From NCBI GenBank assembly GCA_963997635.1, contig CAXEND010000004.1, positions 44,654-108,653 of the forward strand: 64,000 nt of DNA, given 5' to 3'. Positions 1 through 60,958 of this stretch are shown in pieces. The stretch is from an uncultured Rhodospirillaceae bacterium (GTDB taxonomy: Bacteria; Pseudomonadota; Alphaproteobacteria; UBA828). The notes under the pieces were generated by a model that was given only the letters and a program-made list of their open reading frames with translations, did not search any database and was not told the DNA's origin. Every line of letters starts with the position of its first letter. The first letter of the stretch is position 1. The translations under genes and the position numbers were made by a program.

Positions 1-1393
1 CAAGGCTTTCCATATTAGAATAATCATCAGGATCTACTGTTAAATCATGCATTGCAGCTAGCATAAATTCGCCTTCTTGAGCAAAGCCTCTTCTGTCTTC
101 TTTTCCAAAAGAAAGAAGTGTTCTTAGGTTTTTTTTTACATCTGAGAAATTTGTTGAAACAATCACATGTGGTAAATATCCAAAAAATAAAGAAGGGCTA
201 AATGCTAAAACAGGAATCCCAAAAGAGGCTGCCTCAAAAGCACTTCTTCCTAACAGAGAAACTACAGCACGTGCATTTTTGATTATTGGCAGACCAAATT
301 CACTGGGGTCTATTAATATAACATTAGGCATAGTATCCATCATCCTGTAAAAACTCTGATCCCGATACCCAAGTGCAGGTACATGATCTTTAACAGCAAG
401 ATAAGTTCCTACAGGGAGCTCTTTTGATACTTGTTGAATAATAGAAATCTGATCAAAAAATTCTGGGGTTTGTGCTGACAAAAGAACCTCTGGTTCCATT
501 TGGAGGGCTAAAAATACATATGGCCTCTTAGATTCAATAAGAGTATCTAGTTTTACTCCATTTCTACTTAACATTTTGTATATTGATCTACGTTTAAAAT
601 TAAACTTTATATGTCTCCATGGGCTGTAACCGAATTTTGTAACTTTGTCATACCGCCTAAGATGCCAATAGATTGTTCTTATAACTATTATAATAGCTGT
701 CTTTATCAAAGAGGATAATTTTATTCCTGATTTGAAATTATTCCTTATTTGAAGGTGAAAAGGAGGGGGCTGTAGAATTTCGGATGAATGACTTCGACCT
801 TCTTTTTTTACCTGATTATGTTGCTCCTTTAACCAATTAACGTTTACTTTCATTCCATCACGCCAAATCAACCTATCATGCAAAAAAGAGTAGCCCAAAC
901 ATCTAGTAATAATATTTAAACTTTTTGCAATATCACAAACTACACGTCTACCATTAAGAGCAAATGTAATTTGATGCTGCATAAAGATTTTTTCAACACC
1001 CTCATAAATCGCTACAAATTGGCTTATCCACTCTTCATAATCTTGATTAGTTTCAACTCGTGTATAGGGAAAAGTAGTGCATCCAGTAAAATAAAGACGT
1101 CTGTCCGCTAGATTATAGTGCATGATTGTTTCGTAACGATCCTCAATTTCCTGAGCTTTAACCCATAAATTTTTGTCTTCAGTAGAGCGTAATTCCAACA
1201 TTTCAGAAACACTATATACCGCCTCAAAATTTCCTGTCTTCATTAATGGAACTACATCCTGAGCAAAGCGAACTAGACCGATTATTTTTACACCATCATT
1301 TTTCTTAATTAGTTCAAGCATCGGCATCATAAATTTTCGTTCATCACCAATAGCTTCAAAAAGAATAGAGTCTCCCATCTTTAAATTTAACAT
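1..1393 (-). CDS. Capsule polysaccharide biosynthesis protein (Capsule_synth/KpsS-LipB-like), 3' end outside window
   Basis: Not in the ORF track. Hand translation from ATG 1393 (or 1378) gives MLNLKMGDSILFEAIG...PYVFLALQMEPE...LAVKDHVPALGYR...GRSAFEAASFGIPV, matching the PF05159-type C-terminal motifs; frame appears open to the window edge. Confidence 0.75.
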   Translation of the reverse strand, partial: MLNLKMGDSILFEAIGDERKFMMPMLELIKKNDGVKIIGLVRFAQDVVPLMKTGNFEAVYSVSEMLELRSTEDKNLWVKAQEIEDRYETIMHYNLADRRLYFTGCTTFPYTRVETNQDYEEWISQFVAIYEGVEKIFMQHQITFALNGRRVVCDIAKSLNIITRCLGYSFLHDRLIWRDGMKVNVNWLKEQHNQVKKEGRSHSSEILQPPPFHLQIRNNFKSGIKLSSLIKTAIIIVIRTIYWHLRRYDKVTKFGYSPWRHIKFNFKRRSIYKMLSRNGVKLDTLIESKRPYVFLALQMEPEVLLSAQTPEFFDQISIIQQVSKELPVGTYLAVKDHVPALGYRDQSFYRMMDTMPNVILIDPSEFGLPIIKNARAVVSLLGRSAFEAASFGIPVLAFSPSLFFGYLPHVIVSTNFSDVKKNLRTLLSFGKEDRRGFAQEGEFMLAAMHDLTVDPDDYSNMESL

Positions 1394-1448
1394 TTTTTTC
1401 TCGGTCTGAATAAACTGTACGAAATTATACTGATATTAGTTAGGCTAT

Positions 1449-2600
1449 TCATTTCAATTCCCATGGGTTTGTGTAGGTATGTATATCATAAGAGAATTTT
1501 TTGAATAATAAGTTTTCATGGTCATAGTGATTGGTTAATACTTTTGCAACACGGTCACCAGAATAACCATCTCCATATATAAAATTGGCATCAAACTTGG
1601 CTGGTATCGAAGCTAATTTTTTAACTATATCTTCCGTCGTAGAAGATACATGAGAAACATTTATTCCATATTGACGTCCATCTTGGCGTCCACCAACATT
1701 GATAACTGGTAGTCCAAATATACCTGCTTCAACTATTCCACTTGATGAATTTCCGACCATTACAGATGCATGGCGCATCACGTTAGCATATAAATTGTTT
1801 CCGAGATTTTCGATAAATACTGTGTCGCGATTCTCATTTACAAATTTAATTATAAGGTCTCTAATTTTTTTTGAGCCAGGATCAGCATTAGGTGCCGTAA
1901 CTATATTAGGGGCTGGTGATTTTTTAAGTGCAGAAAATACTGCCTGAGCTGTTGCTAATGGATTTAATGAATTTGTTTCAGGATGAACCGTAATAAGACG
2001 TAGGCCCGATATAGATTTCAAACCAATTGATTTAGCAATTTCTTTGGCATCAAGTAGCTCAGCATTTATCAATGTATCTAAACCTGGTGCTCCAGTTACG
2101 TGAATACGCCAACTTTCCTCTCCCATCTTAGAAATAACAGATGCAGTAACTAGGTTTGAGGTGCAATGGAGATGCGACAACTTAGTGATTGCATGTCTAA
2201 GTCTTTCATCTATAGCACCATAGGAGAATTCTCCTCCATGCAAATGAACAAGCGGAATATTAAGACAGCTAGCCCCTAGAACTGCAGCCATCATATCAAT
2301 GCGATCACCAACTATTAGAATACGATCAGGCTTAATTCGAGAAGTTAAGGTCACCACATCAGCTGTAATAGATCCAAGTGAAGATCCTAAATCTTTATTT
2401 GTTTGACCTTGGATACTAGCACCACAAAGGTGCTTGATACTTCGCGGGGGCAATTCAATATCGTTTGAAACTAAATTATTATTATGTGCCCCCGTAAGTA
2501 TTACGTGTAACTCGTGTTCTAAGTTTTTAGAAAGAGAGTTCCAAACTGGTGTTAAAATGCCAATGTCTGATCTGCCACAAGACACACTCAAAATTCGCAT
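1449..2600 (-). CDS. neuC: Hydrolysing NDP-N-acetylhexosamine 2-epimerase (NeuC/LegG)
   Basis: GDR, HLHGGE, IDERLRHAITKLSHLH and GNSSSGIVEA motifs; adjacent to neuB. Confidence 0.92.
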   Translation of the reverse strand: MRILSVSCGRSDIGILTPVWNSLSKNLEHELHVILTGAHNNNLVSNDIELPPRSIKHLCGASIQGQTNKDLGSSLGSITADVVTLTSRIKPDRILIVGDRIDMMAAVLGASCLNIPLVHLHGGEFSYGAIDERLRHAITKLSHLHCTSNLVTASVISKMGEESWRIHVTGAPGLDTLINAELLDAKEIAKSIGLKSISGLRLITVHPETNSLNPLATAQAVFSALKKSPAPNIVTAPNADPGSKKIRDLIIKFVNENRDTVFIENLGNNLYANVMRHASVMVGNSSSGIVEAGIFGLPVINVGGRQDGRQYGINVSHVSSTTEDIVKKLASIPAKFDANFIYGDGYSGDRVAKVLTNHYDHENLLFKKFSYDIHTYTNPWELK

Positions 2601-2601
2601 A

Positions 2602-3618
2602 TTAACTTTTAACCTCTAAGTCAGATTGATATATTGGAGAATCTGCTCGCTTTTTATTTTTTAAAATTCTCCCTATTGGATTTTCATCACCTAGCATCCC
2701 ATCGCCGGGCCGTTTCAAAATAATATCTTTCTCGCTTAATCGTGTCCCCAACTCAATATCTCTTGTTGTGTGCCAACTCCTTCTAACTAAACGAGATACT
2801 TCAATTTCATCTTCTACAGGTTCTTTTACACCGTTGCCCAATGCTTCCTGAACATCACGCACTCCTGCAATCAATGATGATAGTTCGACTGGCTCCAAGG
2901 AAGCCATATGGTCTGGACCAGGTAATGAACGATCTAATGTAAAATGTTTTTCTATAGTAGTTGCACCTAACGCTGCAGCAGCTATTGAAATATGTGTTCC
3001 AATTGAGTGATCAGAAAACCCAACATTAACTTTATACTTATCCCTCATAGTTTTCATTGCCCGAAGATTTATCGTTCTAGGGGGTGCAGGGTATAATGAT
3101 GTACACTGGAGGATTGTTATGTCATCCACATTATTACTCTTTAATATTTCTATTGAATGGGATACTTCCTTCTCATTTGCCATTCCTGTTGATACAATCA
3201 TTGGCAAGTCAAAAGATGCAAATTTCACTAACAAACTTATATTAGTCAAATCCCCTGATGAAACTTTAATTCGATCCATACCAAATTCTATCAAGGTTGA
3301 TACAATCTCATAGTCAAAAGGTGTTACCAAAAAGCCTATTTTTTCTTTTTCACAAGTTGCCGCCAATTTTTCGAAATCGCCGAGAGATAATTCTAGTGAG
3401 CTAAGCATCTCTCTTTGATTTACAGAACCCGTAGCATTTTTTTGGTATGCAGTTGTCTTTGCATGATTGGATACAAGATTCTCGGCCTTAAATGCTTGAA
3501 ATTTGACATAATCGGCTCCAGAAGCTGCTGCAACTCGAACCATCTCATTCGCACGATTAAAATCACCATTGTGATTAACGCCAGCCTCAGCAATAACTAA
3601 AATTTTTTGTGAAATCAT
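2602..3618 (-). CDS. neuB: Nonulosonic acid synthase (NeuB/LegI family)
   Basis: IAEAGVNHNG, VKFQ, GFSDH, IEKHFTLDRSLPGPDH, C-terminal SAF domain (KRPGDG). Confidence 0.95.
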   Translation of the reverse strand: MISQKILVIAEAGVNHNGDFNRANEMVRVAAASGADYVKFQAFKAENLVSNHAKTTAYQKNATGSVNQREMLSSLELSLGDFEKLAATCEKEKIGFLVTPFDYEIVSTLIEFGMDRIKVSSGDLTNISLLVKFASFDLPMIVSTGMANEKEVSHSIEILKSNNVDDITILQCTSLYPAPPRTINLRAMKTMRDKYKVNVGFSDHSIGTHISIAAAALGATTIEKHFTLDRSLPGPDHMASLEPVELSSLIAGVRDVQEALGNGVKEPVEDEIEVSRLVRRSWHTTRDIELGTRLSEKDIILKRPGDGMLGDENPIGRILKNKKRADSPIYQSDLEVKS

Positions 3619-4214
3619 TTTTTATGCGGATAACGAGTTAGAGCTGGAATCAAACTATCATCATCAATTTTACTTCTAGGCAACGTCACTGATGAAGCAC
3701 CTATCATTGAACAATCACCGATTATACTTTGACCTAAAATTACTGCACCAGGTGCAACATGAACACCTTCCCCTATAGAACAATCATGTTCTACTATAGA
3801 TCCAGAGTTAATAATTGTGCCTTTTCCTACTTTGACACCAGGTTGTATTATAGCCCCAGCAAGAATAACTACACCTAACCCTATATTTGCTGTATCACTT
3901 ACAATAGCTTTGCTGTGTATAATCGGAGGAGCTGTATACCCTTTAGAGAGAAATGTTTGAAGTATATCCAGTCGTTTTTTTAACTGCTTAACCTGAACAC
4001 CACCTAGTCCAATTACGATTGGTATTTTTTTATCAAATTCTTCAGTATCTGATTCGATCTGACCACATTGAAGCCAAGGACAACGTTGGGAATCTATATA
4101 AAATTTAATCTCACCAAGTATTTTGTCAGCTGCCTCTACAACACCTCGTGCATGTCCTCCAGCACCGATCAAAACATAGCCCGCTCCACCATATATGCCT
4201 AGATTCTTACCCAC
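3615..4214 (-). CDS. NeuD/PglD-family sugar acetyltransferase (LegH role)
   Basis: GAGGHA N-terminus, hexapeptide repeats, IVEHDC. Confidence 0.88.
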   Translation of the reverse strand: MGKNLGIYGGAGYVLIGAGGHARGVVEAADKILGEIKFYIDSQRCPWLQCGQIESDTEEFDKKIPIVIGLGGVQVKQLKKRLDILQTFLSKGYTAPPIIHSKAIVSDTANIGLGVVILAGAIIQPGVKVGKGTIINSGSIVEHDCSIGEGVHVAPGAVILGQSIIGDCSMIGASSVTLPRSKIDDDSLIPALTRYPHKK

Positions 4215-5343
4215 TACTCCAATTCCATTGTGATAAATGAGAAATTACTCTGGCTTGATCATCATCTGTCAAAGATGAACTACAAGGAAAGGATACAACC
4301 TTTCCTGTTAATTTTTCTGAAACACCATTTAAGAATGATGGAGCATCTATATATGGAGGCTGTATTGATAACGACCTCCAAAAACTTCTTACTTCAATGT
4401 TTTGTGCATCTAAATATCTCATCAGGTCACATGATGCTGGTTCACTTTCACACACTACCGAATACAGCCAATTAGAGCTTTCACCCCAGTTCATAGAAGA
4501 TAATGTCTTTAAGTTTTTATGTTTATTAACTATAGGGTCATATATTTCAGCAATTTTTCTTTTTGCTGCTAACATTTCATCCATTCTTTCTAATTGTGCA
4601 AGCAATAGTCCAGCATTTATATTTGTCATTCTATAATTAAATCCAATTGATTCATATTTGTAATCCTGACCAACCCGGGCTTGACCAGATAATTTTCTTA
4701 GGTATGCAGCATCTATAGAAGAATTTGTTAAAATCATTCCTCCACCACCAGCTGTAATTGTTTTATTCCCATTAAAACTCAATACAGAAAACTCCCCGAA
4801 AGATCCTACTGGACGACCTTGGTATTTTGCACCAAAAGCCCCAGCCGCATCCTCAATTAATGGTATTTTTGCAGATTTACTGATCGAGATAAGTGGATCT
4901 AAGTTGGCAGGATGACCCAGAGGATGCACAACAATCATGGCTGATATACGACCTGGATAATTAGATATAATTTTCTCAACAATATCTGGATCAAGTGAAT
5001 AACTTTGTTTATCTATATCTGCAAAGATTGGTATGCATCCTGCATGATAAACAGCATTAGCTGTAGCAGCAAAGGTCCAATCAGGAATAATCACATAGTC
5101 ACCTGGCTTAGTTTTACAAGCCAACAAGGACAGGTGAAGTGCTGCAGAGCCATTAACTGTAGCTATTGCATTTGATCGTTCTAATTTATTTTTAATAATC
5201 TCTTCACACTCTCCTATGAAAGGACCAGCTGATGAAACCCAGTTTGTTTCAATACACTTTTTTAAATAAACTAATTCATTCCCCCTTAAGTCAGGAACAG
5301 CCAAAGGGATTCGATCTGCTCTGGCTCTGTTCTGGTGAACCAT
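4207..5343 (-). CDS. legC: LegC-family PLP aminotransferase (DegT/DnrJ/EryC1/StrS)
   Basis: WVSSAGPF, EDAA, SFNGNKTITAGGGG, GFNYRMTNINA. Confidence 0.85.
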   Translation of the reverse strand: MVHQNRARADRIPLAVPDLRGNELVYLKKCIETNWVSSAGPFIGECEEIIKNKLERSNAIATVNGSAALHLSLLACKTKPGDYVIIPDWTFAATANAVYHAGCIPIFADIDKQSYSLDPDIVEKIISNYPGRISAMIVVHPLGHPANLDPLISISKSAKIPLIEDAAGAFGAKYQGRPVGSFGEFSVLSFNGNKTITAGGGGMILTNSSIDAAYLRKLSGQARVGQDYKYESIGFNYRMTNINAGLLLAQLERMDEMLAAKRKIAEIYDPIVNKHKNLKTLSSMNWGESSNWLYSVVCESEPASCDLMRYLDAQNIEVRSFWRSLSIQPPYIDAPSFLNGVSEKLTGKVVSFPCSSSLTDDDQARVISHLSQWNWSSG

Positions 5344-6920
5344 TATACCTCTCTCATAGAAAAAATTTCTGATCTCTCATTTCTAAGAATATCAATCATA
5401 TTTTTTATTGGTTCCTGCATTTGTTCAGTGTCAACTAAATTATTTAGTTCACGAGGGTCTTTAAGCTTGTCGTAGGCCTTTTCAATATGGAGAAATTTTC
5501 CGCTTAAAATTGCCATCATTTTATGTGCTGGAGTTGTAACAGTAAAATATATATCTCGATGGCTTAGATTTGAGTCACCGTGTCCACAACTTTCAGAAAT
5601 AACAAAATCTTTTGGATTCTGAAAAATGCTAATTCCTTTGAAACTGACATGAGGTTTTACATGTAGGACGTCAAGAAAAGTTGCAGTCATCCCCATACTA
5701 TCAATCATACCAATATTTTGTGGGTTGTTAGATGCATTGCATAAAAGCATAGGAACTTCTATATCTTCATAGTGAGTACGTGTTCCAATTTGCAATTTTT
5801 TTCTTGGACTCTCCGCATAATACAAGCCATGATCTCCAGTTACTAAGATAACTGTATTATTAAGTTGTCCTGTACGTTCAAGTGTATCGATCAAACGCCC
5901 TAATAGCTCGTCCACATACATTATTGCTGTGTCATAAAGCCATCTACGTTTGGTAAGACCTCGCAGTCGAGCGTAAAGCCATTTAGGAAAAAATTTTAGT
6001 CTATACATTAAGTGTAAGGGTCGACTTATAGATCGACAGTCATGTACATCCATCATATGCATATGGATAAACCAACGCCTATCAACTCTATCCTCAATCA
6101 ATTCACATAATGGCTTAATTATATCTCCAAAAATTACCGGGAAATGTGACATTGCTAAAAATGGCCAGAATGTTTGTTTGGCAACCCACCTTCGTGTTCT
6201 CCACCTTACAGATTCCAGAGCTCGATAGAAGAATAAACGCAATCCCCTTGGTCTTTGCTGACCTAAAAACCGCCAGTATATACCAGGAGCGATTTTCCTG
6301 ATTTTTTCTATGACTTCTGACGGGTCGTTTTCAAGTAGTCTTATTTCTGCGGCACAACCTTTAGCAACTTTCTTGTTTATTCTATGTAATACTCTAGGCC
6401 ATACAGACTTATCATGATTATCAATTGAATCTCTTAAGTTACTTAGTAACAAACTTAATTCTTTTACTACTGCTGTTTCAGCTTTATCGTCGTTGGTTGA
6501 ATATTTTTTTTCAAGTTTGTATCTTAAAGTACGCCCAATACGCTGTTCCAGTAATAATCGAAAATCTGATGTAGTACGAATACTATCAAAGCCTCTACCA
6601 TACCCAGTAGTAACACCAAGTTGATTACAACTTGCAATAAGGTGTGTCTCAAACCCATCCTTTTTAAGGGATTCTACAAAACTTTGAGGCCTTTCTCTTA
6701 TGCCGTTATCATAACCCCCATAGTCGAGAGGGTATGTTAGTGAAAATAAGGACGGCATAACAAACTGAGTCGATTGAGCATTAGTCACAACTTTTCTAAC
6801 AAATCCACTCTTTACAAGTTTTGAAAGATTAGGAGCAATAATTTCTCTAGATGCTTTGTCCTCGAGGACATCAAAACGCAAAGAATCAATAAGCAGGAAA
6901 AGAGCCTTTTTATTTTTCAT
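5343..6920 (-). CDS. Alkaline-phosphatase/sulfatase-superfamily protein (no CxPxR motif; Thr at nucleophile position)
   Basis: LIDSLRFD, STQFVMPSLFSLTYP, HMMDVH, YDTAIMYVD, TGDHG, DPRELNNL. Confidence 0.75.
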   Translation of the reverse strand: MKNKKALFLLIDSLRFDVLEDKASREIIAPNLSKLVKSGFVRKVVTNAQSTQFVMPSLFSLTYPLDYGGYDNGIRERPQSFVESLKKDGFETHLIASCNQLGVTTGYGRGFDSIRTTSDFRLLLEQRIGRTLRYKLEKKYSTNDDKAETAVVKELSLLLSNLRDSIDNHDKSVWPRVLHRINKKVAKGCAAEIRLLENDPSEVIEKIRKIAPGIYWRFLGQQRPRGLRLFFYRALESVRWRTRRWVAKQTFWPFLAMSHFPVIFGDIIKPLCELIEDRVDRRWFIHMHMMDVHDCRSISRPLHLMYRLKFFPKWLYARLRGLTKRRWLYDTAIMYVDELLGRLIDTLERTGQLNNTVILVTGDHGLYYAESPRKKLQIGTRTHYEDIEVPMLLCNASNNPQNIGMIDSMGMTATFLDVLHVKPHVSFKGISIFQNPKDFVISESCGHGDSNLSHRDIYFTVTTPAHKMMAILSGKFLHIEKAYDKLKDPRELNNLVDTEQMQEPIKNMIDILRNERSEIFSMREV

Positions 6921-6942
6921 AAATAATTAAACCTGATAAAAT

Positions 6943-8376
6943 TTAACTTTTATTTTTGTCCCAATTAAGACTAGCTCTTAGATGGGAAATCGAATTTATT
7001 TGCACTGCATTCATTCGATTTCCTGTATGAGGATAAGTGACACCAGTCGCCAAAACAAGATCTTGATCAACTAAGAGATCACGTCGCCACAGCATTTCAA
7101 GAGTTGTTCCAAAGTGGTTTATATTTTCTTTAGGAAAAGGGGTATTACTATACACACCCTGAGTCCCCGGAAATAAATTAAAACTCCTAGCAGCACTTGC
7201 ATCATCGCTTACTGCAATTATTGGTTGTGTAGGCATATGAACCGCAATCATCCGGGCAGCAAAACCTGAACGAGTTATCGCTACAATTTTTGTAATTGGA
7301 AGAGCACGGCACAAAGTTTTAATTGCCTCGCCCATCACTTCAGGAATTGTGTCTCCAACATTTGGAGCTTCTAAGTCTAGTTTTTTTTGAACAAATTCTT
7401 CTGAGGAATGAGCTACGCTATTCATTAAACATATAGCTTCTTGAGGATAGTCTCCTACTGCCGTCTCTCCAGAAAGCATTGTTGCAGCACAACCGTCTAT
7501 AACAGCATTCGTTATATCGCTAACTTCAGCTTTTGTTGGGAAAGGATTTTCAATCATCGTATGCAACATCTCAGTTGCAATAATAACCGGCCTACCAAAT
7601 TTAGATGCAGCATTAATTATCTGTTTTTGGAACAAAGCCACATCAAACAAACTAGTTTCCACTGAGAGATCACCACGGTCTACCATAATTGCATCCGCTT
7701 CCCTCGCAATTTCATTTACTTTGTCAAGGCCTCCTTGATTTTCAACTTTTGCAACAATTCTTGGTGAGCTAGAACCTATTAGATTTTTAAATGCGGTAAT
7801 ATGTGCTGCAGACTCAACAAAACTTAAACCAATAAAATCAACATTAATGTTACAGGCAAACTCCACCATTAACTCATCTTTCGGTGTAACTTCTGGAATG
7901 TTGAGAGGTACGAAAGGAACATTAATTCCCTTTGCACTTTTAAGTTTGCCCTCGGTATTTGCTTCACAATAAATATCTCGTCCTTCAACTTTATTTACAG
8001 TGAAACGTAATGTTCCATCATCTGCTAAAATTATATGATTTGGCTTCAAAAACTCATGTAACGATTCGTAATTGACAGGGACTTTGCTTTTACCTTTGTA
8101 TGTTATATCTGTAGTTAATATAATTTGTTCACCAATTTTAAATTCAGGTTCATGTTGGAGCTGAGTAGTACGAATTTTTCTACCCGGTATATCTAGCAAG
8201 ATAGGTAATTCAGGGAGAGTATCTCTAATTATTTTTACGGCGTTGGAATGCCAATCTAAATTATTATGAGATCCGTTTAGACGAGCTACGGTCATTCCTT
8301 TTTTCCACATGGAAAGCAGTTTTGAATCATCAAGAGACCGTGGACCTATAGTACAAACTATTCCTGTTCTAGACAT
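6943..8376 (-). CDS. pyk: Pyruvate kinase-family protein with divergent active-site motifs
   Basis: IVCTIGP, ARLNGSH, AKVEN, MVDRGDLSVE, ATEML, MLSGETA; full-length A/B/C domains. Confidence 0.85.
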   Translation of the reverse strand: MSRTGIVCTIGPRSLDDSKLLSMWKKGMTVARLNGSHNNLDWHSNAVKIIRDTLPELPILLDIPGRKIRTTQLQHEPEFKIGEQIILTTDITYKGKSKVPVNYESLHEFLKPNHIILADDGTLRFTVNKVEGRDIYCEANTEGKLKSAKGINVPFVPLNIPEVTPKDELMVEFACNINVDFIGLSFVESAAHITAFKNLIGSSSPRIVAKVENQGGLDKVNEIAREADAIMVDRGDLSVETSLFDVALFQKQIINAASKFGRPVIIATEMLHTMIENPFPTKAEVSDITNAVIDGCAATMLSGETAVGDYPQEAICLMNSVAHSSEEFVQKKLDLEAPNVGDTIPEVMGEAIKTLCRALPITKIVAITRSGFAARMIAVHMPTQPIIAVSDDASAARSFNLFPGTQGVYSNTPFPKENINHFGTTLEMLWRRDLLVDQDLVLATGVTYPHTGNRMNAVQINSISHLRASLNWDKNKS

Positions 8377-8379
8377 TAT

Positions 8380-9456
8380 TTACTCATCCATAAAAAGCTT
8401 TATGTTATTCAGGGACTCTATGACCTCATGCCTCATTAATTTTGGGTTAGGAAAACTACCATCTCCTAGAATTTGTCGCATGTCTGAGCCATTGATTAGT
8501 TTAACTGCATCTGTGCCAGAATGGGGACATGTTTTTTCTGTCACCAAGGAATCACAAATTTCACAAAAATAAGGTCCACTTAAGCACAATATTGTTATTC
8601 CGAGTTTTCCCTCAAATTTATTTGCAAGCCTATGAGCATCATATTCTCCATACCAACCACCTACACCTGCATGATCACGTCCAACAATAAAGTGTGTACA
8701 TCCATAATTTCGACGGATTATGGCATGAAATATCGCTTCTCTTGGACCTGCAAATCTCATGAAAGTTGATAGTGTTCCCAATATCACTCTATCTTTAGGG
8801 AAAAAACCATTAATGAGGGTCTCATATCCTGTTAATATTGCCTCTGGGGTAAAATCACCAGATCTGCGTTGGCCAATTAATGGTTGAATAAAGAGGCCGT
8901 CTGCAAATTCTAGTGCAATTTTTTGTAAATATTCATGTGCTCGATGAGGTACATTTCGTGTTTGAAAACCTACCATGCGCCTCCATTTATTTTCTCTAAA
9001 GATGTTTTTTGTATCAGCTGGCGTAAGTTTATCGTGCCAAATACCAGTATCTATACGCTTTAATAATTTTACCAATCCACCTACAAAAACTGGTTTTAAT
9101 GAGATAAAATGTTTTACACCTGGATGATTTGGATCATCCGTGCCGAATATAGCTTTAGCCACAAGACTACGATCACAGTTATAAAAGTCGTTTGGTATTA
9201 GATGTGCTACAACAGAGCCCATATACAGAAGTTCAACCGTAGAACCTATATCAATCTCATTTGCAAGTTTTTCATCAACATCTAATACAATAGGAAGAGT
9301 AAAAATATCTCCTGAAGGAAGACAAAATTCATTTACTACTGATTTAAACTCGGTTTCATTCATAAATCCCATAATAGGAAAAAATGCCCCTAAACCTATT
9401 TTTTCAACCTCTAAATATTGAGTGAGGTTTAAGTTTATTTGACTATTGTTAGCCAC
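8380..9456 (-). CDS. sat: Sulfate adenylyltransferase (Sat type)
   Basis: FQTRNVPHRAHE, MRFAGPREAIFHAIIRRNYGCTHFIVGRDHAG. Confidence 0.9.
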   Translation of the reverse strand: MANNSQINLNLTQYLEVEKIGLGAFFPIMGFMNETEFKSVVNEFCLPSGDIFTLPIVLDVDEKLANEIDIGSTVELLYMGSVVAHLIPNDFYNCDRSLVAKAIFGTDDPNHPGVKHFISLKPVFVGGLVKLLKRIDTGIWHDKLTPADTKNIFRENKWRRMVGFQTRNVPHRAHEYLQKIALEFADGLFIQPLIGQRRSGDFTPEAILTGYETLINGFFPKDRVILGTLSTFMRFAGPREAIFHAIIRRNYGCTHFIVGRDHAGVGGWYGEYDAHRLANKFEGKLGITILCLSGPYFCEICDSLVTEKTCPHSGTDAVKLINGSDMRQILGDGSFPNPKLMRHEVIESLNNIKLFMDE

Positions 9457-9986
9457 TACTTTGATAAGCCTTTGGAATAATTTAAAAATTTTAGAGAGTT
9501 AATTATTTTAATGGCAGTAGTAGAAGGATTTTCGATTAATGTAGCATCCACTTCCATATTAGGCTTATTGGGTTCGTGCCATGGTATATCAATACCAACG
9601 ACATTCTTTATATTACCAATTTCTGCACCTGCATAAAGACCCTTAGAATCTCGAGTCTGAAGGAACTCCAATGATGCCTTTAAATACACTTCAAAATAAT
9701 TTGAAAAATTTTCTCGGTTCCAACTTAATAAATCTGGATGAGAATAAAGTGCTGCAACAATTACTAACATACCTGAGCGATCTAACCATGCAGCTAATCT
9801 CTGTAATCTTCGAATTTGTTGTTCTCTTTCTGCTTCTGTGTAGCCTAGATCATTTTCAAATAAAGCACGCACCTCATCACCATCTAAAAGTATAGTCTGG
9901 GGAAAATCTGGCTTTAGAATCTTCAATACTTCTCTAGCTATGGTAGTTTTTCCTGCACCAGACATTCCAGTAATCCAAACAATCAT
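9456..9986 (-). CDS. cysC: Adenylyl-sulfate kinase-family protein (atypical clade)
   Basis: GMSGAGKTT P-loop, LDGD, RDSKGLY; lacks the canonical ISPY and FTGI motifs. Confidence 0.8.
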   Translation of the reverse strand: MIVWITGMSGAGKTTIAREVLKILKPDFPQTILLDGDEVRALFENDLGYTEAEREQQIRRLQRLAAWLDRSGMLVIVAALYSHPDLLSWNRENFSNYFEVYLKASLEFLQTRDSKGLYAGAEIGNIKNVVGIDIPWHEPNKPNMEVDATLIENPSTTAIKIINSLKFLNYSKGLSK

Positions 9987-10134
9987 AATTTTTTATGTTC
10001 CATTTATATGATAAGTTTTATTATTAAAAATGGTTAAAATATCAATTAACAAAGTGAAAGATTGAAAATTATTTTTTTTCTTTATAAGAGGCCTATCTGG
10101 ACGCTATATACCTTTGCATGGTATGAGCCTGTTT

Positions 10135-11160
10135 ATGTCTGAAGAAAATTTCAAATCTTACGCTAGCAAAAGCGTTCTTATCACGGGTGCAGACGGTTTT
10201 ATTGGTTCCCACCTTACAGAACTTCTTGTTAAATCGGGAGCTAATGTCACAGCTTTGACACTTTATAACGCCCTTGGGTCTAATGGTTGGCTTGATTCTA
10301 TCCCTGATCATATATACGAATCAGTAAACATTTACTCTGGTGATGTACGTGATTCTGCCCAAATGATGCGATTGGTTGATGGTTACGATATAGTTTTTCA
10401 TTTAGCAGCACTGATTGGGATACCCTATTCCTATGAAGCGGCTCACTCATACGTTGATGTAAATATTAGTGGCACCCTTAATTTATTAGAAGCCGTCAGA
10501 AAGAATGGAACTGGAAGATTCATACACACTTCTACAAGTGAAGTGTATGGATCTGCAAAGACCAAGCCTATATCTGAAAGTCATCCTATACATGGTCAAT
10601 CCCCATATGCCGCATCGAAGATAGGTGCTGATCAACTTGCTGAGGCCTACGCAAGATCACACAATATTCCGATTGTAATTATTCGACCCTTTAATGCTTA
10701 TGGTCCCCGTCAGAGCGAACGTGCTGTTATTCCTACAACCATTCGTCAGATTTTTGATCCACAATGTGAAACAGTAAAACTAGGTGATCTCAGTACTACT
10801 CGTGATTTTAACTATGTTAGTGATACAGTTAGAGCCTTTGCAATGATAGGCGAGTCAAATGATGTCAACTTTGGCACAGCGTATAACGCTGGAAGTGGCG
10901 TTGAAACATTAGTAAGTGAAGTAGTAGAAAAACTCATGCAAATTTCAGGATGTAAGAAAGAAATTATAATAGAAAACTCTCGTATTAGACCTGAAAAATC
11001 TGAAGTTCGTGCTCTTGTCGCTGATTCAAGTAAACTTAAAAAAATAACTGGTTGGAAATGTAACGTAACACTTGATAAAGGGGTTCATCAGACTCTGAAT
11101 TGGTGGAAATCTAGAACTGATAACGTAACAATTAGGCGAAACCGAAAATTTGCTAAATAA
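10135..11160 (+). CDS. legB: NAD-dependent NDP-GlcNAc 4,6-dehydratase (LegB-like)
   Basis: ITGADGFIGSHL, HLAALIGIPYSY, TSTSEVYG, QSPYAASK, RPEKSEV; ORF track opens at 10114. Confidence 0.85.
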   Translation: MSEENFKSYASKSVLITGADGFIGSHLTELLVKSGANVTALTLYNALGSNGWLDSIPDHIYESVNIYSGDVRDSAQMMRLVDGYDIVFHLAALIGIPYSYEAAHSYVDVNISGTLNLLEAVRKNGTGRFIHTSTSEVYGSAKTKPISESHPIHGQSPYAASKIGADQLAEAYARSHNIPIVIIRPFNAYGPRQSERAVIPTTIRQIFDPQCETVKLGDLSTTRDFNYVSDTVRAFAMIGESNDVNFGTAYNAGSGVETLVSEVVEKLMQISGCKKEIIIENSRIRPEKSEVRALVADSSKLKKITGWKCNVTLDKGVHQTLNWWKSRTDNVTIRRNRKFAK

Positions 11161-12274: not shown

Positions 12275-13900
12275 ATGGTGAATATTGACAAAGCAGCAAA
12301 ACTTAAAACCCTGCTAAAATCTAAAGATCTAACCTTTATTATGGAAGCTCATAACGGACTCTCCGCTAAGATTGTAGAAGAAGTTGGATTCCAAGGTATC
12401 TGGGCCTCAGGCTTATCAATGTCAACTGCATTGGGAGTTAGAGATAATAACGAAGCATCATGGACACAGGTTCTAGAGCAGCTTGAGTTTATGGCTGATG
12501 CCACATCTATACCTATTCTTGTTGACGGAGATACAGGTTATGGAAACTTTAACAATGTTCGCCGTTTAGTGGCAAAACTCTGTCAAAGGGATATAGCTGG
12601 AGTTTGTATTGAAGACAAATTATTTCCAAAAACTAACTCCTTCATAGGAGAAAGTCAGCCACTAGCAGAAGTAGATGAATTTTGCGGTAGAATAAAAGCT
12701 GGGAAAGATACACAGAGTAATTCAAATTTTTGCCTAGTTGCACGTGTAGAAGCATTAATCTCGGGTTGGCCTATGGAAGAAGCACATAAACGGGCAACTG
12801 CTTATGATGATGCTGGAGCAGATGCTATACTGATACATTCAAAGAAATCTGATGCTAATGAAGTTATTGAATTTGCTTCTGCTTGGAATGGAAATGCACC
12901 ATTAATAATTGTCCCAACTATGTACTATAAGACTCCTACTGAAACTTTTCGAAATACCAAAATATCAACAATAATCTGGGCAAATCATAATATGAGAGCT
13001 GCAATTTCCTCCATGCGGAGGATAAGCAAAATAATTTTTGACGAAAAATCCTTAGTTTCAGCTGAAGAGGAGATTGTTTCTGTTAAAGATGTATTTTCTC
13101 TAATGGAGCAAAAAGAGTTAGCTGAAGCAGAAAAGAAATACTTTAAGAGCACAGAAAAAGAAATAAGAGGAATTGTTTTAGCCGCAACTCAGGGAACTAA
13201 ACTAGGCCCACTTACGAATGATATTCCTAAATCTATGGTTGATGTTAGAGGAAAACCCCTCTTGGAACGCTTAACCAAAACTCTCAATGATTGTGGAATA
13301 AAGAATATTAGTGTGGTCTGCGGATTTAAAGCTGAGACCGTAAATATTAAAAATATTAATAAGGTTGAAAACTCTGATTATTCAGATACTGGTGAGGTAA
13401 CCTCATTAATCTCAGCTATTGAAAATCTCTCTGGGCCTTGCATATTAACTTATGGAGACATTCTCTTCAGACCCTATATATTAGAGTCACTTCTCGCAGT
13501 AGATGGAGACATTGTTTGTGCTATAGACTCGATGTGGAAAAATATCGAGTTTCGTGATCCAAATAGAAATGCCGATCTCGTTAGGTGCTCTATACAATAT
13601 ACGGGGACGTATCTTGAAGACGATACAACCCAAATTTTAAATTTTTTACCAAACAATAATAATTGTGATGCAGATGGTGAATTTATTGGTCTATTAAAAC
13701 TTAGCGAAGTTGGCACTAAAATAATTAAATCCAAACTAGATCAAGTTAAAAATAGTAAAGAATTTAAAAGTGCCGACCTGCCATACCTCTTGCAACAACT
13801 TATAGATGAAGGTAAATGCGTTAAGGGTCATTACTTTTCAGGACACTGGCTTGATTTAGATGATGCCTTTGACCTTGCCCGAATGAGAAACATGGTCTAA
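12275..13900 (+). CDS. pepM: Phosphoenolpyruvate mutase fused to a C-terminal NTP transferase (PntC-like)
   Basis: Diagnostic [10 protein letters not shown] (EDKx5NS); MEAHNGLSA; C-terminal LAATQGTKL...PKSM...YGDI domain. Confidence 0.95.
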
Positions 13901-13922
13901 GACCAAGATATGTTCGGAGGTT

Positions 13923-57539: not shown

Positions 57540-58154
57540 ATGACGTTAACAGAGGTTTCTACACAGCTCAATTCTATAAACAACAATAAATTACCACCAA
57601 TATTTTTTTTAACTGATATGAATAAATTTAAAAATCCTGAGGTAATATGTCAGCAATTACCAACTGGAAGTGGGGTGATTTTTAGAGATTACGAGATTTC
57701 TGATAGAAAACTTAGAGCAAATACTTTAGCTAAAGTTTGTGCAGAACACGGGCTAATTTTGTTTATTGGTGAAGATAGGGACTTAGCTCTTTCTGTAGGA
57801 GCTGATGGTGTGCATTATAAAGAAAATACAATTACATCAGCTCTTAAGAGCATGAAAGATAAAAAATTAATTGTAACTGCTGCTACTCATACGTTTAATT
57901 CAATACTCATGGCTAAGGAAGCAGGTGCCGATGCCGTTCTACTATCACCTGTATTTAGAACCAAATCTCATCCAGAAGCTACGCCCTTGGGAATCTCAAA
58001 GTTTCGTGATTGGACTAATAGATCTCCATTGCCGGTGTATGCTCTAGGGGGGATAAGTTCAGATAACGCTCATAAATTATTATCAACTAAAGCGATCGGC
58101 ATAGCAGCCATTGAAGGAGTAATTAGAGAGTTTTATCCTTCTGAGAAGTCTTGA
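57540..58154 (+). CDS. Thiamine-phosphate synthase (ThiE/TenI) family protein
   Basis: [21 protein letters not shown]. Confidence 0.8.
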
Positions 58155-60067: not shown

Positions 60068-60079
60068 GGTTTTGAAACT

Positions 60080-60877: not shown

Positions 60878-60958
60878 CTTATATTTTACCTTATAAAAGT
60901 GCTAATTATAATTATATAACATAAAACTTATGTTTATAAAGTATTAACATAAAAATTT

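What the first reader, a model, noticed from the sequence alone, without database searches (positions are those of the whole stretch)
5343..9986. Kinase / nucleotidyltransferase / 3'-kinase / transferase cassette inside the nonulosonate operon: candidate undescribed glycan-modification pathway
Seen: four tightly coupled genes (APS-kinase-like, sat, pyk-like, AP-superfamily protein) sit directly in front of legC with 1-nt overlaps or gaps of 3-22 nt. Three of the four deviate from their housekeeping motifs, and a canonical PAPS system (cysD-cysNC) already exists at 58-61 kb. Known: the Campylobacter O-methyl phosphoramidate pathway repurposes a PEP-utilising-family kinase (Cj1418), a nucleotidyltransferase (Cj1416) and an APS-kinase homologue (Cj1415) to build a 3'-phosphorylated nucleotide donor for capsule decoration. 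Inference: the same logic with different scaffolds. The Pyk-like enzyme makes X-phosphate, Sat adenylylates it, the kinase adds a 3'-phosphate, and the Thr-nucleophile protein transfers phospho-X (or sulfate) to the glycan. Caveat: Sat keeps its QTRN/HRAH/GRDHAG motifs, so plain PAPS supply is a real alternative.
Basis: partly seen in the sequence, partly recalled or inferred. Interest (0 to 1): 0.82.

Follow-up and report, generated by a model that had tools for sequence, protein, structure and literature searches.

The report
PAPS cassette with odd transferase
Four tightly linked genes in a bacterial sugar-coat operon most likely make the activated sulfate donor PAPS, helped by a dedicated pyruvate kinase copy, and hand the sulfate to a legionaminic-acid-type sugar through an enzyme type not known to do this.

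Summary
Four minus-strand genes at 5343-9986 sit directly before legC, with 1-nt overlaps or 3-22 nt gaps. They are an APS-kinase-like gene, sat, a pyruvate-kinase paralogue and a cytoplasmic alkaline-phosphatase-superfamily protein ('APsf').

APSK-Sat-PK is a widespread fixed-order module: Sat lies directly upstream of this PK clade in 60 of 80 loci. In other genomes it sits beside canonical PAPS sulfotransferases and TauE/TSUP transporters. PK-barrel-Sat fusion proteins also exist (120 of 120 listed hits). So it most likely makes PAPS, with PK inferred to recycle ADP to ATP from PEP.

APsf has a sulfatase/phosphonate-monoester-hydrolase-like fold but no C-x-P-x-R motif. It keeps an invariant Thr and the metal ligands. 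It is largely confined to nonulosonate loci and usually travels with the kinase.

The same kinase subfamily, plus APsf-like proteins, also sits in methylphosphonate-synthase operons, once fused to the pathway's alcohol dehydrogenase.

Best reading (about 0.5): PAPS synthesis followed by O-sulfation of the nonulosonate glycan by a new alkaline-phosphatase-fold transferase. Rivals: APsf is a hydrolase, or it transfers a phosphonate.

The parts
9456..9986 (-). APS-kinase-like 3'-kinase (176 aa, P0001), of the PRK05541-type subfamily rather than canonical CysC
   Evidence: Tree: a clade of 60 rows split by a long branch (support 100) from the genome's own CysNC kinase domain.
8380..9456 (-). Homo-oligomeric-type ATP sulfurylase Sat (358 aa, P0002; PUA_2 + ATP-sulfurylase domains)
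   Evidence: PDB hits 8a8d at E 2e-88 and 1v47 at E 1e-86. QTRN, HRAH and GRDHAG are invariant in 24 clade members.
6943..8376 (-). Sulfation-associated pyruvate-kinase paralogue (477 aa, P0003; barrel + C-terminal domain)
   Evidence: Second canonical PK elsewhere in the genome. Sat directly upstream in 60 of 80 loci.
5343..6920 (-). APsf: cytoplasmic AP-superfamily protein with a sulfatase/PMH-like fold, no C-x-P-x-R motif, invariant T51 and metal-ligand residues; candidate group transferase (525 aa, P0004)
   Evidence: No hydrophobic segment.
4207..5343 (-). legC-type aminotransferase; its start overlaps the APsf stop by 1 nt
   Evidence: TIGR04181 346.9 bits, below its cut-off of 420; DegT family 294 bits.
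1449..4214 (-). PglD/NeuD-like acetyltransferase (3615-4214), NeuB-type nonulosonate synthase (2602-3618), NeuC-type hydrolysing 2-epimerase (1449-2600)
1..1393 (-). Soluble 479-aa protein with no Pfam hit that co-travels with APsf; runs past the window start; possibly the nonulosonate glycosyltransferase (guess)
9987..10113 (.). 127-bp divergent intergenic region between the cassette and the dehydratase gene; likely promoter region (not shown)
   Evidence: The consensus-like site is not above chance.
10114..11160 (+). NAD-dependent 4,6-dehydratase (legB-like), divergent from the cassette; co-travels with APsf
12275..15062 (+). Context: PEP mutase fused to a nucleotidyltransferase (12275-13900) and phosphonopyruvate decarboxylase (13923-15062). 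This gives a second possible cargo for the same glycan.
   Evidence: TIGR02320 385 bits against a cut-off of 319.6; TIGR03297 433 bits against 312.5.
58133..61795 (-). Context: second PAPS system, cysNC (58133-60067) and cysD (60080-60877), followed by a Sulfotransfer_1 gene (60959-61795)
34851..36914 (-). Context: TPR + Sulfotransfer_3 protein (687 aa), about 7 kb beyond the glycan locus; a possible alternative user of the PAPS

Best explanation
The cassette has two parts.

(1) A PAPS-making module. Sat makes APS from ATP and sulfate. The APS-kinase-like enzyme adds the 3'-phosphate. The dedicated pyruvate-kinase paralogue uses PEP to turn the kinase's ADP back into ATP, which removes the ADP that traps APS kinases in a dead-end complex. 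The gene content and the association with sulfation are shown. The role of the PK is inferred.

(2) APsf. It is a cytoplasmic alkaline-phosphatase-superfamily enzyme with a sulfatase/phosphonate-monoester-hydrolase-like fold, an invariant Thr51 and a retained metal site, but no formylglycine motif. I infer that it takes the sulfuryl group from PAPS and puts it on a hydroxyl of the legionaminic-acid-type sugar made by the downstream genes. The acceptor could be the free sugar, the CMP-activated sugar or the glycan-bound sugar. Transfer could be direct or through a Thr-bound intermediate.

The kinase and AP-fold pair appears to be a general device for 3'-phosphonucleotide-activated, singly charged tetrahedral groups. 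In related genomes the pair sits in methylphosphonate-synthase operons, where the cargo would be methylphosphonate instead of sulfate.
For: Trio and sulfation.
- A search with the PK-clade alignment matched 167 stretches, of which 80 loci were kept. Sat is directly upstream of PK in 60 of 80 and the kinase is present in 56 of 80, in the fixed order APSK-Sat-PK.
- Stappia sediminis has Sulfotransfer_1/3 - APSK - Sat - PK - TauE as one tight gene run.
- A home-made iterated sulfotransferase profile finds canonical sulfotransferases in 14 of the 80 loci.
- The kinases beside canonical sulfotransferases, beside APsf and beside MPn genes are interleaved in one clade, far from canonical CysC.
- Sat matches solved ATP sulfurylases at E 1e-88 and keeps its motifs.

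PK-Sat coupling.
- One 731-aa protein combines a PK barrel, PUA_2 and ATP-sulfurylase.
- All 120 of 120 listed homologues have the same three domains.
- The fusion shares the IDRGDLS signature of the cassette PK.
- In vitro, PK/PEP regeneration was reported necessary for PAPS synthesis because of the dead-end E-ADP-APS complex (PMC9885120, passages read).

APsf.
- D12, T51, H288, D291, H293, D294, D363 and H364 are invariant in 23 of 23 sequences.
- The model has pLDDT 83. Its best structural matches are choline sulfatase, other S1 sulfatases and PMH.
- No transmembrane segment.
- Among the 24 of 25 fetched loci with a full-length APsf match, 15 have a NeuB-type gene and 15 have the kinase within 10 kb.
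- Among genomes whose APsf locus lacks the trio, four hold the clade PK on another contig or nearby, three of them with the full trio (L043, L044, L107 full; L049 PK + APSK only). Others hold PK-Sat fusion-type frames.
- Five trio + APsf genomes lack a close PEP mutase, so sulfate is the only visible cargo there.
- No canonical sulfotransferase lies within the nonulosonate locus.
- The genome already has a bona fide CysQ, so a PAP-removal role for APsf is not needed.

MPn link.
- NT-MPnS-FeADH-APSK(-APsf-like) operons: the kinase is present in 12 of 80 MPnS/HEPD-homologue loci and APsf(-like) in 8 of 80.
- One Fe-ADH-APS-kinase fusion protein.
- The APsf-like proteins there keep the Thr and the metal motifs.
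Against: - As far as I know, every sulfuryl-transferring member of the AP superfamily uses formylglycine, and Ser/Thr members handle phosphoryl groups (established knowledge, recalled). A Thr-type sulfotransferase would be unprecedented.
- The loop carrying T51 is modelled at only about pLDDT 64, and no residue-level superposition could be made.
- The genome has three canonical sulfotransferases. One is about 7 kb beyond the locus and one is next to cysDNC. Either could use the PAPS.
- Only 8 of the 60 trio loci have APsf nearby.
- A PEP-mutase/decarboxylase pair lies 2.3 kb from the cassette, so a phosphonate cargo is possible in this window.
- All five MPn-type genomes also hold a Sat. The kinase there could therefore still be making PAPS, with the MPn genes as mere neighbours.
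- The conserved substitutions next to PK catalytic residues hint at a function other than plain ADP phosphorylation.
- 20 of 80 loci have this PK clade without Sat.
- No chemical evidence of a sulfated glycan exists for these organisms.
Confidence: 0.5

Rival explanations
1. APsf is a hydrolase, not the transferase. It would clear a by-product or surplus donor (PAP or another 3',5'-bisphosphonucleotide, APS/PAPS), or edit the glycan. The sulfate would be transferred by a canonical sulfotransferase elsewhere, or by one of the unknown co-travelling proteins.
For: The fold and nearest solved relatives are all hydrolases. The genome has three canonical sulfotransferases. Two uncharacterised proteins (352 aa with a BFD-like 2Fe-2S motif, and 275 aa) co-travel with APsf. 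PAP inhibits sulfotransferases at micromolar levels (PMC9885120, passage read).
Against: The genome has a bona fide CysQ (275 bits against a cut-off of 228.8). APsf is tied to nonulosonate loci, not to the PAPS module in general: it is in 8 of 60 trio loci and in none of the 10 trio loci that have canonical sulfotransferases. A by-product scavenger should follow the module. APsf is translationally coupled to legC.
Confidence: 0.17
2. In this window the kinase and APsf pair handles a phosphonate. The PEP-mutase-nucleotidyltransferase fusion and the decarboxylase make an NMP-phosphonate. The kinase adds a 3'-phosphate, and APsf transfers the phosphonyl group through Thr51. Sat and PK only supply PAPS for a separate sulfotransferase.
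For: A true PepM (fused to NT) and Ppd lie 2.3 kb away, and the fully syntenic locus L001 has them too. Kinase and APsf(-like) genes sit inside MPnS operons, with one Fe-ADH-kinase fusion. Thr-type AP-superfamily enzymes are chemically suited to phosphodiester or phosphonate transfer (recalled knowledge). Campylobacter ppm-ppd clusters flanked by an adenylsulfate kinase were noted but left unexplained in PMC8942020 (passage read).
Against: Five genomes with trio + APsf have no close PepM (best 24-35% identity; they are incomplete MAGs). The kinase is the first gene of the Sat-PK operon, with a 1-nt overlap to Sat. The window and its genome lack MPnS and a clear Fe-ADH or AEP transaminase next to PepM. 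The active-site columns of APsf do not differ between sulfate-type and MPn-type loci.
Confidence: 0.15
3. The PK-like enzyme phosphorylates a small molecule X. Sat adenylylates X-phosphate. The kinase adds the 3'-phosphate. APsf transfers phospho-X (for instance a phosphoramidate-like group), by analogy with the Campylobacter O-methyl-phosphoramidate pathway.
For: PK-Sat fusions fit consecutive steps as well as they fit ATP supply. The PK clade has invariant substitutions beside catalytic residues. Thr-type AP enzymes favour phosphoryl transfer. The locus has many methyltransferases. The MeOPN donor is CDP-phosphoramidate 3'-phosphate, made with an APS-kinase homologue (PMC11800397, introduction passages read).
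Against: The same trio is linked with canonical PAPS-type sulfotransferases and TauE/TSUP sulfur-anion transporters. The kinases form one clade. Sat is about 50% identical in the aligned blocks to characterised ATP sulfurylases, with every motif kept. PK keeps all catalytic residues and scores 390.8 bits on the pyruvate-kinase equivalog. No glutamine-kinase-type or amidohydrolase-type gene appeared in the Pfam scans of the locus.
Confidence: 0.06
4. APsf is an ordinary step of nonulosonate synthesis, such as a phosphatase or phosphomutase of the AP superfamily. It would be unrelated to PAPS, and its position next to the trio would be coincidental.
For: APsf is embedded among leg genes. In 9 of 24 loci it has no kinase within 10 kb. 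The AP superfamily includes Ser/Thr phosphomutases (recalled).
Against: Most genomes that lack the trio beside APsf carry it, or a PK-Sat fusion, elsewhere. APsf-like proteins also follow the kinase in MPnS operons that have no NeuB-type hit in the fetched locus. The described Leg pathway needs no such step (recalled).
Confidence: 0.07

Closest known systems
Dedicated PAPS-supply genes in glycan or signal sulfation loci (NodP/NodQ with NodH in rhizobia; Sat + CysC generally)
   Same: Both have an extra sulfate-activation set placed with the genes for the molecule to be sulfated. The chemistry is Sat followed by an APS kinase.
   Different: This one uses a single-subunit Sat, not CysD/CysN, and a separate APS-kinase subfamily. 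It always carries a pyruvate-kinase paralogue, sometimes fused to Sat. In this window no canonical sulfotransferase lies in the operon. The NodPQ/NodH comparison is recalled, not tested.
In vitro PAPS-generating enzyme cocktails (ATP sulfurylase + APS kinase + pyruvate kinase/PEP ± pyrophosphatase)
   Same: The same three activities. PK/PEP removes ADP and was reported necessary for PAPS formation (PMC9885120, passages read).
   Different: That is a laboratory design using housekeeping PK. Here a natural, dedicated PK clade with its own sequence signature is genetically coupled to Sat. Its activity is untested.
Campylobacter jejuni O-methyl-phosphoramidate pathway (Cj1415-Cj1418, transferases Cj1421/Cj1422)
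   Same: An APS-kinase homologue makes a PAPS-like 3'-phosphorylated nucleotide donor for decorating a surface glycan (PMC11800397, passages read). The MPnS-operon relatives of the window's kinase suggest the same logic.
   Different: No glutamine kinase, cytidylyltransferase or amidohydrolase homologues appeared in the Pfam scans of the locus. The nucleotide here is adenine, through a true Sat. The cargo is most likely sulfate. The putative transferase is an AP-superfamily protein. I did not compare Cj1415 or Cj1421 sequences.
S1 formylglycine sulfatases and phosphonate monoester hydrolases (choline sulfatase 6g5z/7pth; PMH 2vqr/2w8s)
   Same: They are the best sequence-profile and structural matches. 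APsf shares the N-terminal metal-binding Asp, the D-H pair and the C-terminal subdomain. PMH and arylsulfatases accept both phosphonate and sulfate monoesters (recalled), which mirrors the two cargoes proposed here.
   Different: APsf has no C/S-x-P-x-R motif: V54 and L58 stand at those places, and T51 is invariant. It has a roughly 130-residue helical insert. It is cytoplasmic and sits in a biosynthetic operon. Sequence identity is 12-15%.
Methylphosphonate synthase clusters of marine microbes (MPnS, PDB 6b9s)
   Same: The same kinase subfamily and APsf-like proteins are operon partners of MPnS homologues in 12 and 8 of 80 loci.
   Different: The window's genome has no MPnS. How methylphosphonate is attached to glycans is, to my recollection, unknown. 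The primary paper was not held.

Membership tests
APS kinase (CysC; TIGR00455 / PF01583) | P-loop and LDGD motifs; Pfam domain | tested here: met
   GMSGAGKTT and LDGDEVR are in the translation. PF01583 scores 125.4 bits against a cut-off of 21.1. PDB APS kinases match at E 2e-27.
APS kinase (CysC; TIGR00455 / PF01583) | Reaches the equivalog cut-off and groups with canonical CysC | tested here: not met
   TIGR00455 scores 130.6 bits, below its cut-off of 138.7. It passes the subfamily model NF004041 instead (151.5 against 127). The genome's own CysNC kinase domain scores 241 bits on TIGR00455. In the tree the cassette clade is separated from CysC by a long branch with support 100 (quick tree only).
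ATP sulfurylase (Sat; PF01747, NF003166) | Domain scores above cut-offs; QTRN, H-x-x-H and GRDHAG motifs | tested here: met
   PF01747 scores 252 bits and NF003166 413.6 against 387. TIGR00339 scores 321.8, just under its cut-off of 322.95. The motifs are in the translation and invariant in 24 of 24 clade members. PDB 8a8d matches at E 2e-88.
Pyruvate kinase (TIGR01064, PF00224 + PF02887) | Equivalog score; catalytic Arg/Asn/Ser, Lys/Glu, Asp and Thr, and the MLSGETA motif | tested here: met
   TIGR01064 scores 390.8 bits against 306.4. In the alignment to 2e28 these residues are all retained.
Pyruvate kinase (TIGR01064, PF00224 + PF02887) | Housekeeping-type conserved motifs (RLNFSHG, ARGDLG, ATQMLES) | tested here: not met
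   The clade-invariant forms are RLNGSH, DRGDLS and ATEMLHT, in 20 of 20 sequences. The genome's other PK has the usual forms. The functional meaning is unknown.
S1 formylglycine-dependent sulfatase | C/S-x-P-x-R nucleophile motif | tested here: not met
   The aligned segment is V54-M-P56-S-L58, and V54 and P56 are invariant in 23 of 23 sequences. Placing it against the sulfatase motif rests on spacing to the conserved Pro and on the partial HMMER alignment to 4upi, not on a structural superposition.
S1 formylglycine-dependent sulfatase | Sulfatase fold with N-terminal metal-binding Asp and a D-H/N pair | tested here: met
   Foldseek gives choline sulfatase at E 3e-14 and TM 0.51, with 207 chains at E <= 0.001. 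D12 and D363-H364 are invariant.
PAPS-dependent sulfotransferase (Sulfotransfer_1/2/3 fold) | Sulfotransferase domain in any of the four cassette proteins | tested here: not met
   No such Pfam hit in the cassette or in the rest of the nonulosonate locus. Such genes exist elsewhere in the genome.
Membrane phosphotransferases of the AP superfamily (EptA/LtaS type) | N-terminal transmembrane domain and periplasmic catalytic domain | tested here: not met
   The catalytic Asp is at residue 12. The highest 19-residue hydropathy is 1.31. The Thr-to-Pro spacing resembles what I recall for these enzymes (recalled, not tested). They were not among the 60 listed of 83 PDB sequence-profile hits, nor among the Foldseek rows shown.
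Campylobacter MeOPN donor pathway | Glutamine kinase, cytidylyltransferase and amidohydrolase partners of the 3'-kinase | tested here: not met
   No such domains appeared in the Pfam scans of the 40-kb locus. Direct comparison with the Cj1415-Cj1418 sequences was not done.
3'-phosphonucleotide-donor transferase (proposed here) | Transfer of sulfuryl or phosphonyl from PAPS or 3'-phospho-NMP-phosphonate to a sugar | not testable with these tools
   Only gene-order, fusion and conservation evidence is available.

The most novel reading that the evidence does not exclude
The PRK05541-type kinase and the Thr-type AP-fold protein together form an unrecognised group-transfer system. It would use 3'-phosphonucleoside 5'-phospho-X donors and move X (sulfate here, methylphosphonate in MPnS operons) onto surface sugars. 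That would make APsf the first alkaline-phosphatase-fold sulfotransferase. It would make its relatives the missing enzymes that attach methylphosphonate to marine glycans. And the PK paralogue and PK-Sat fusions would be a natural PEP-driven PAPS synthase.
Probability: 0.4. Interest if true: 0.85.

Novelty: new variant of a known kind. Interest (0 to 1): 0.7.

Why it matters
Bacterial glycan sulfation is poorly mapped, and all known PAPS users have the classical sulfotransferase fold.

If APsf transfers sulfate it defines a new enzyme class for sulfation. It would also explain a conserved decoration of legionaminic-acid-type sugars in abundant uncultured marine proteobacteria.

The dedicated pyruvate kinase, including a widespread PK-Sat fusion annotated only as 'pyruvate kinase' or 'sulfate adenylyltransferase', points to a natural answer to the ADP-inhibition problem that biotechnologists solve with PK/PEP.

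The same kinase and AP-fold pair in methylphosphonate-synthase operons offers a testable route for how methylphosphonate is attached to cell-surface polymers. Methylphosphonate is the precursor of methane formed in oxygenated sea water.

Tried and rejected
- Complex prediction for PK (A2) with Sat (A4): score 0.00, 'no answer'. This counts neither for nor against binding.
- Literature: the searches found no paper describing this cassette, a PK-Sat fusion, or an AP-fold sulfotransferase. One search was a wasted search, because 'MpnS' matched tumour and materials acronyms. The primary MPnS paper and the Cj1415 paper were not held. Supplementary files were not consulted and may hold cluster tables that bear on the MPn operons.
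- 'No sulfotransferase in the genome' as an argument for APsf was rejected: three canonical ones exist. PF03567 found nothing, but its controls did not ring either, so that search is uninformative.
- Mutual exclusion of APsf (8 loci) and canonical sulfotransferases (10 loci) among the 60 trio loci is too small a sample to be meaningful. About 1.3 overlaps would be expected by chance. My sulfotransferase profile was also home-made from one Stappia protein, so it can miss other families.
- Specificity-determining residues between sulfate-type and MPn-type APsf: only weak tendencies (S50/A, S258/G) in 9 against 5 sequences. Not used.
- Atlas look-up of the 275-aa co-travelling protein returned only unnamed clusters.
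- Promoter and terminator scan: nothing above shuffled expectation.
- Metatranscriptome contigs: three short pieces with no differences from the window (298, 151 and 151 nt) in two marine RNA libraries from two studies. One spans the APSK/Sat junction. These are contigs from RNA libraries with small word shares. They do not prove transcription and say nothing about the uncovered parts.
- The careful tree did not finish, so the quick tree is what I cite.
- ORF calling in my scripts was crude. Antisense shadow ORFs displaced some real genes, so counts are taken from tblastn.
- Eight of the 80 PK-clade loci are the same contigs as APsf loci (L032=L001, L033=L004, L034=L005, L037=L006, L055=L013, L067=L008, L074=L021, L091=L012).

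Full report
**What is in the window.**
The minus strand of 1-9986 carries one tight gene run. In order it holds an APS-kinase-like gene (9986..9456), sat (9456..8380), a pyruvate-kinase gene (8376..6943) and a 525-aa sulfatase-family protein that I call APsf (6920..5343). These are followed by a legC-type aminotransferase, a PglD/NeuD-type acetyltransferase, a NeuB-type synthase, a NeuC-type epimerase and a 479-aa protein without a Pfam match.

Upstream of the window, on the same contig, the operon continues. It holds a PhyH-like oxygenase, an FkbM-type methyltransferase, HisF/HisH-like genes, a PseA-like amidotransferase, a CMP-nonulosonate synthetase, two unknown proteins, a PtmE-like nucleotidyltransferase, an ABC exporter and a second, pseudaminic-acid-type gene set.

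On the other side of the cassette lie several more genes:
- a legB-like dehydratase and an HTH regulator;
- a true PEP mutase fused to a nucleotidyltransferase, and a phosphonopyruvate decarboxylase;
- methyltransferases, an O-antigen-ligase-like protein, a carbamoyltransferase and a priming transferase.

cysD-cysNC is at 58-61 kb. The genome is 2.09 Mb and 94.6% complete. It has a second, canonical pyruvate kinase on another contig, so the cassette kinase and PK are extra copies.

**The first three genes are a conserved module.**
The cassette PK belongs to a well-separated clade: homologues share 57-81% identity with it, against 33% for the genome's own housekeeping PK. A search of one genome per species with the clade alignment matched 167 stretches, and 80 loci were kept.
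- Sat lies directly upstream of the PK in 60 of 80 loci, and the kinase upstream of Sat in 56 of 80, always in the order APSK-Sat-PK.
- The loci come from many phyla and include cultured strains (Stappia, Hongsoonwoonella, strain BAL199).
- Eight of the 80 are the same contigs as APsf loci.
- In Stappia sediminis the run is Sulfotransfer_1/3 - APSK - Sat - PK - TauE-family permease.
- A profile that I iterated from that sulfotransferase finds canonical sulfotransferases in 14 of the 80 loci. Some loci have five copies.
- A TauE/TSUP permease follows the PK in 16 loci, and a CPA-family transporter precedes the kinase in 14.
- In a quick tree of 63 kinase sequences, the cassette kinases (60 rows) form one clade. 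A long, fully supported branch separates it from the genome's own CysNC kinase domain.
- Inside that clade, kinases that sit beside canonical sulfotransferases, beside APsf and beside methylphosphonate genes are interleaved.

Canonical sulfotransferases use PAPS, so this kinase subfamily makes PAPS. Sat matches solved ATP sulfurylases at E 2e-88 and keeps QTRN, HRAH and GRDHAG in all 24 clade members aligned.

**Why a pyruvate kinase?**
The PK keeps the residues that align with the catalytic residues of solved pyruvate kinases, and it scores 390.8 bits on the equivalog model. It also carries a clade-invariant signature: RLNGSH, DIPGRKIRT, DRGDLSVET and ATEMLHTM in 20 of 20 sequences. The Lys in DIPGRKIR is what I recall for K+-independent pyruvate kinases.

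The link to Sat is physical in other genomes:
- The genome of locus L016 encodes a 731-aa protein made of a PK barrel, PUA_2 and ATP-sulfurylase.
- All 120 listed homologues of it, at 54-67% identity (one at 100%) and 707-754 aa, have the same three domains. They are named only 'pyruvate kinase' or 'sulfate adenylyltransferase'.
- The fusion shares the IDRGDLS form of the cassette PK.
- Frames of the same type occur in the genomes of two further APsf loci.

I found no paper describing this.

A published enzyme cascade shows that PK/PEP regeneration was necessary for PAPS synthesis in vitro, because APS kinase is trapped in a dead-end enzyme-ADP-APS complex (PMC9885120, passages read). My inference is that the paralogue does this job in vivo. 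ADP from the kinase is rephosphorylated at the expense of PEP, and the ATP feeds Sat.

This step is inferred, not shown. The conserved substitutions, and the 20 of 80 loci with this PK but no Sat (12 of them with a TauE permease), leave room for a different activity.

**The fourth gene.**
APsf belongs to a modest family: 279 representative clusters at E <= 1e-30 out of 1.84 billion. Members are annotated 'sulfatase-like hydrolase/transferase' or hypothetical.
- Twenty-three homologues share 44-75% identity with it. D12, T51, V54, P56, H288, D291, H293, D294, C295, R296, D363 and H364 are invariant.
- The AlphaFold model (pLDDT 83.1, pTM 0.84) has a sulfatase-type core and a helical insert at about residues 120-247.
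- Foldseek places it with choline sulfatase (E 3e-14, TM about 0.5), other S1 sulfatases and phosphonate monoester hydrolases, at 12-15% identity. The sequence profile agrees.
- The formylglycine motif C/S-x-P-x-R is absent. V54 and L58 stand in those positions, and the only invariant hydroxyl residue in that loop is T51.
- There is no signal peptide or membrane segment. The catalytic Asp is at residue 12 and the maximum hydropathy is 1.31.

So APsf is not a formylglycine sulfatase, yet it keeps a metal site, which argues against a dead protein.

**Where APsf occurs.**
Twenty-five loci were fetched with the family alignment, and 24 hold a full-length match.
- 15 of the 24 have a NeuB-type gene within 10 kb.
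- 15 have the kinase within 10 kb.
- 8 have Sat and PK at my thresholds.
- Only one has a canonical sulfotransferase.

Where the trio is not adjacent, it is often elsewhere in the same genome. L043, L044 and L107 are from the same MAGs as L009, L003 and L025, and L049 lies near L020. PK-Sat fusion-type frames occur in the genomes of L011 and L019, and a barrel-type PK next to Sat in that of L007/L014. In two genomes (L002, L015) only a housekeeping-like PK was found with this query.

Conversely, only 8 of the 60 trio loci have APsf. APsf is therefore specific to nonulosonate loci and depends on the kinase, while the PAPS module is general.

The genome has a bona fide CysQ, so a PAP-clearing role is not needed. 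Five trio + APsf genomes lack a close PEP mutase (incomplete MAGs), which leaves sulfate as the only visible cargo there.

From this I infer that APsf is the transferase that uses the PAPS. The acceptor would be the legionaminic-acid-type sugar whose genes it is translationally coupled to. I recall reports of sulfated ulosonic and nonulosonic acids in polysaccharides of marine bacteria, but I did not check them.

**The methylphosphonate connection.**
In four APsf loci the kinase and APsf sit next to phosphonate genes instead of Sat-PK: PEP mutase or decarboxylase, a MobA-like nucleotidyltransferase, an Fe-alcohol dehydrogenase and a homologue of methylphosphonate synthase (PDB 6b9s, E 5e-74). 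In one of them the alcohol dehydrogenase and the kinase are a single 560-aa protein.

A search with two MPnS homologues returned 80 loci.
- The run NT-MPnS-FeADH-APSK recurs in Rhodospirillaceae, Flavobacteriales, Kiloniellaceae and Nitrospirales, and the kinase also lies beside MPnS genes in other arrangements in a Phycisphaerae and a deltaproteobacterial locus.
- The kinase is present in 12 of 80 loci and APsf or APsf-like proteins in 8 of 80.
- Those APsf-like proteins keep the Asp, the Thr, the H-x-x-D-x-H segment and the D-H pair.
- Nitrosopumilus-type loci showed the nucleotidyltransferase but neither partner at my thresholds.

A sulfate monoester and a methylphosphonate monoester are both singly charged tetrahedral groups. 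Solved relatives of APsf (PMH, arylsulfatases) are known to accept both (recalled). The simplest unifying idea has three steps. The kinase 3'-phosphorylates an NMP-X anhydride (APS, or NMP-methylphosphonate). The AP-fold enzyme then transfers X. This parallels the Campylobacter phosphoramidate donor (PMC11800397, passages read).

A review had noted an unexplained adenylsulfate kinase beside Campylobacter ppm-ppd genes (PMC8942020, passage read).

The caveat is that all five MPn-type genomes also hold a Sat. The kinase there might therefore still be making PAPS, with the MPn genes as neighbours only. The gene fusion and the fixed gene order argue against that but do not exclude it.

**What weighs against the best reading.**
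- A Thr-based sulfuryl transfer has no precedent known to me.
- The T51 loop is modelled with low confidence.
- Three canonical sulfotransferases exist in the genome: at 34851-36914, at 60959-61795 next to cysDNC, and on another contig.
- A PEP-mutase pair lies 2.3 kb from the cassette, so APsf could carry a phosphonate in this organism.
- No glycan chemistry is available.

I put 0.5 on 'PAPS module plus AP-fold sulfotransferase'. I put about 0.8 on the narrower claim that the trio makes PAPS.

**Expression.**
Three short contigs with no differences from the window occur in two marine RNA libraries. One spans the kinase/Sat junction. This is only a weak hint of transcription.

**Verdict.**

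Three things do not appear in the literature I could search: the dedicated PK paralogue and the PK-Sat fusions, the separate kinase subfamily, and the Thr-type AP-fold protein shared between sulfate and methylphosphonate contexts. They make a testable case for a new kind of group transferase.

Noticed in passing
L119:2621-4816 (-), genome of locus L016; homologues P0393-P0512: A widespread fusion protein of about 720 aa: pyruvate-kinase barrel + PUA_2 + ATP sulfurylase. It lacks the PK C-terminal regulatory domain. All 120 of 120 listed hits share the architecture, including Methyloversatilis discipulorum. They are annotated only as 'pyruvate kinase' or 'sulfate adenylyltransferase'.
   Followed up: partly
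L014:3982-5664 (+): A single 560-aa protein fuses an Fe-alcohol dehydrogenase (phosphonoacetaldehyde-reductase-like) to an APS-kinase-like domain. It lies directly after an MPnS homologue in a Nitrospirales MAG.
   Followed up: partly
window 58133-61795 (-): cysNC and cysD are followed in the same direction by a 278-aa Sulfotransfer_1 gene. The 'housekeeping' PAPS system therefore also looks tied to a sulfation step. A 378-aa protein with no NCBIfam hit lies upstream (61962-63098).
   Followed up: no
window 34851-36914 (-): A 687-aa protein with many TPR repeats and a C-terminal Sulfotransfer_3 domain (138 bits), about 7 kb beyond the glycan locus.
   Followed up: no
window 12275-15062 (+): PEP mutase fused to a nucleotidyltransferase, plus phosphonopyruvate decarboxylase, with no adjacent aminotransferase, alcohol dehydrogenase or MPnS. 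The phosphonate end product in this organism is unclear.
   Followed up: partly
L030:12376-14266 (-), upstream of the window on the same contig: Two uncharacterised proteins co-travel with APsf, in 9 and 8 of 26 loci (25 loci plus the window's own). One is 352 aa with a BFD-like [2Fe-2S] motif and the other is 275 aa with no family. The Atlas gives only unnamed clusters for the 275-aa one.
   Followed up: partly
L094, L098, L099, L102, L103, L105, L108-L111 (Caballeronia, Paraburkholderia, Burkholderia, Andreprevotia, Jeongeupia, a Proteobacteria MAG, Pseudomonas, Azospirillum): The same PK clade (47-55% identity) occurs without Sat or the kinase. It is followed by a TauE/TSUP-family permease and an AEC-family transporter. 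Its role there is unexplained.
   Followed up: partly
L033, L034, L036, L037, L039, L040 and others: A CPA-type (Na_H_Exchanger family) membrane protein of about 410 aa directly precedes the kinase in 14 of 80 PK-clade loci. It may be an anion or sulfate carrier for the module. It is absent from the window.
   Followed up: no
L030 (contig upstream of the window) and window 1-5343: The locus holds both a legionaminic-type and a pseudaminic-type gene set, with two NeuB-type synthases and two CMP-sugar synthetases, plus acetimidoyl-forming genes (PseA-like, HisH/HisF-like).
   Followed up: no
window 22667-24388 (+): A NodU/CmcH-type carbamoyltransferase co-travels with APsf in 9 of the 26 loci (25 loci plus the window's own), which suggests a further O-carbamoyl decoration.
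   Followed up: no
L119:1027-2631 (+): A second, more sulfatase-like AP-superfamily protein (534 aa, PF00884 139 bits) lies divergently next to the PK-Sat fusion. It too has Thr rather than Cys at the aligned nucleophile-loop position.
   Followed up: partly
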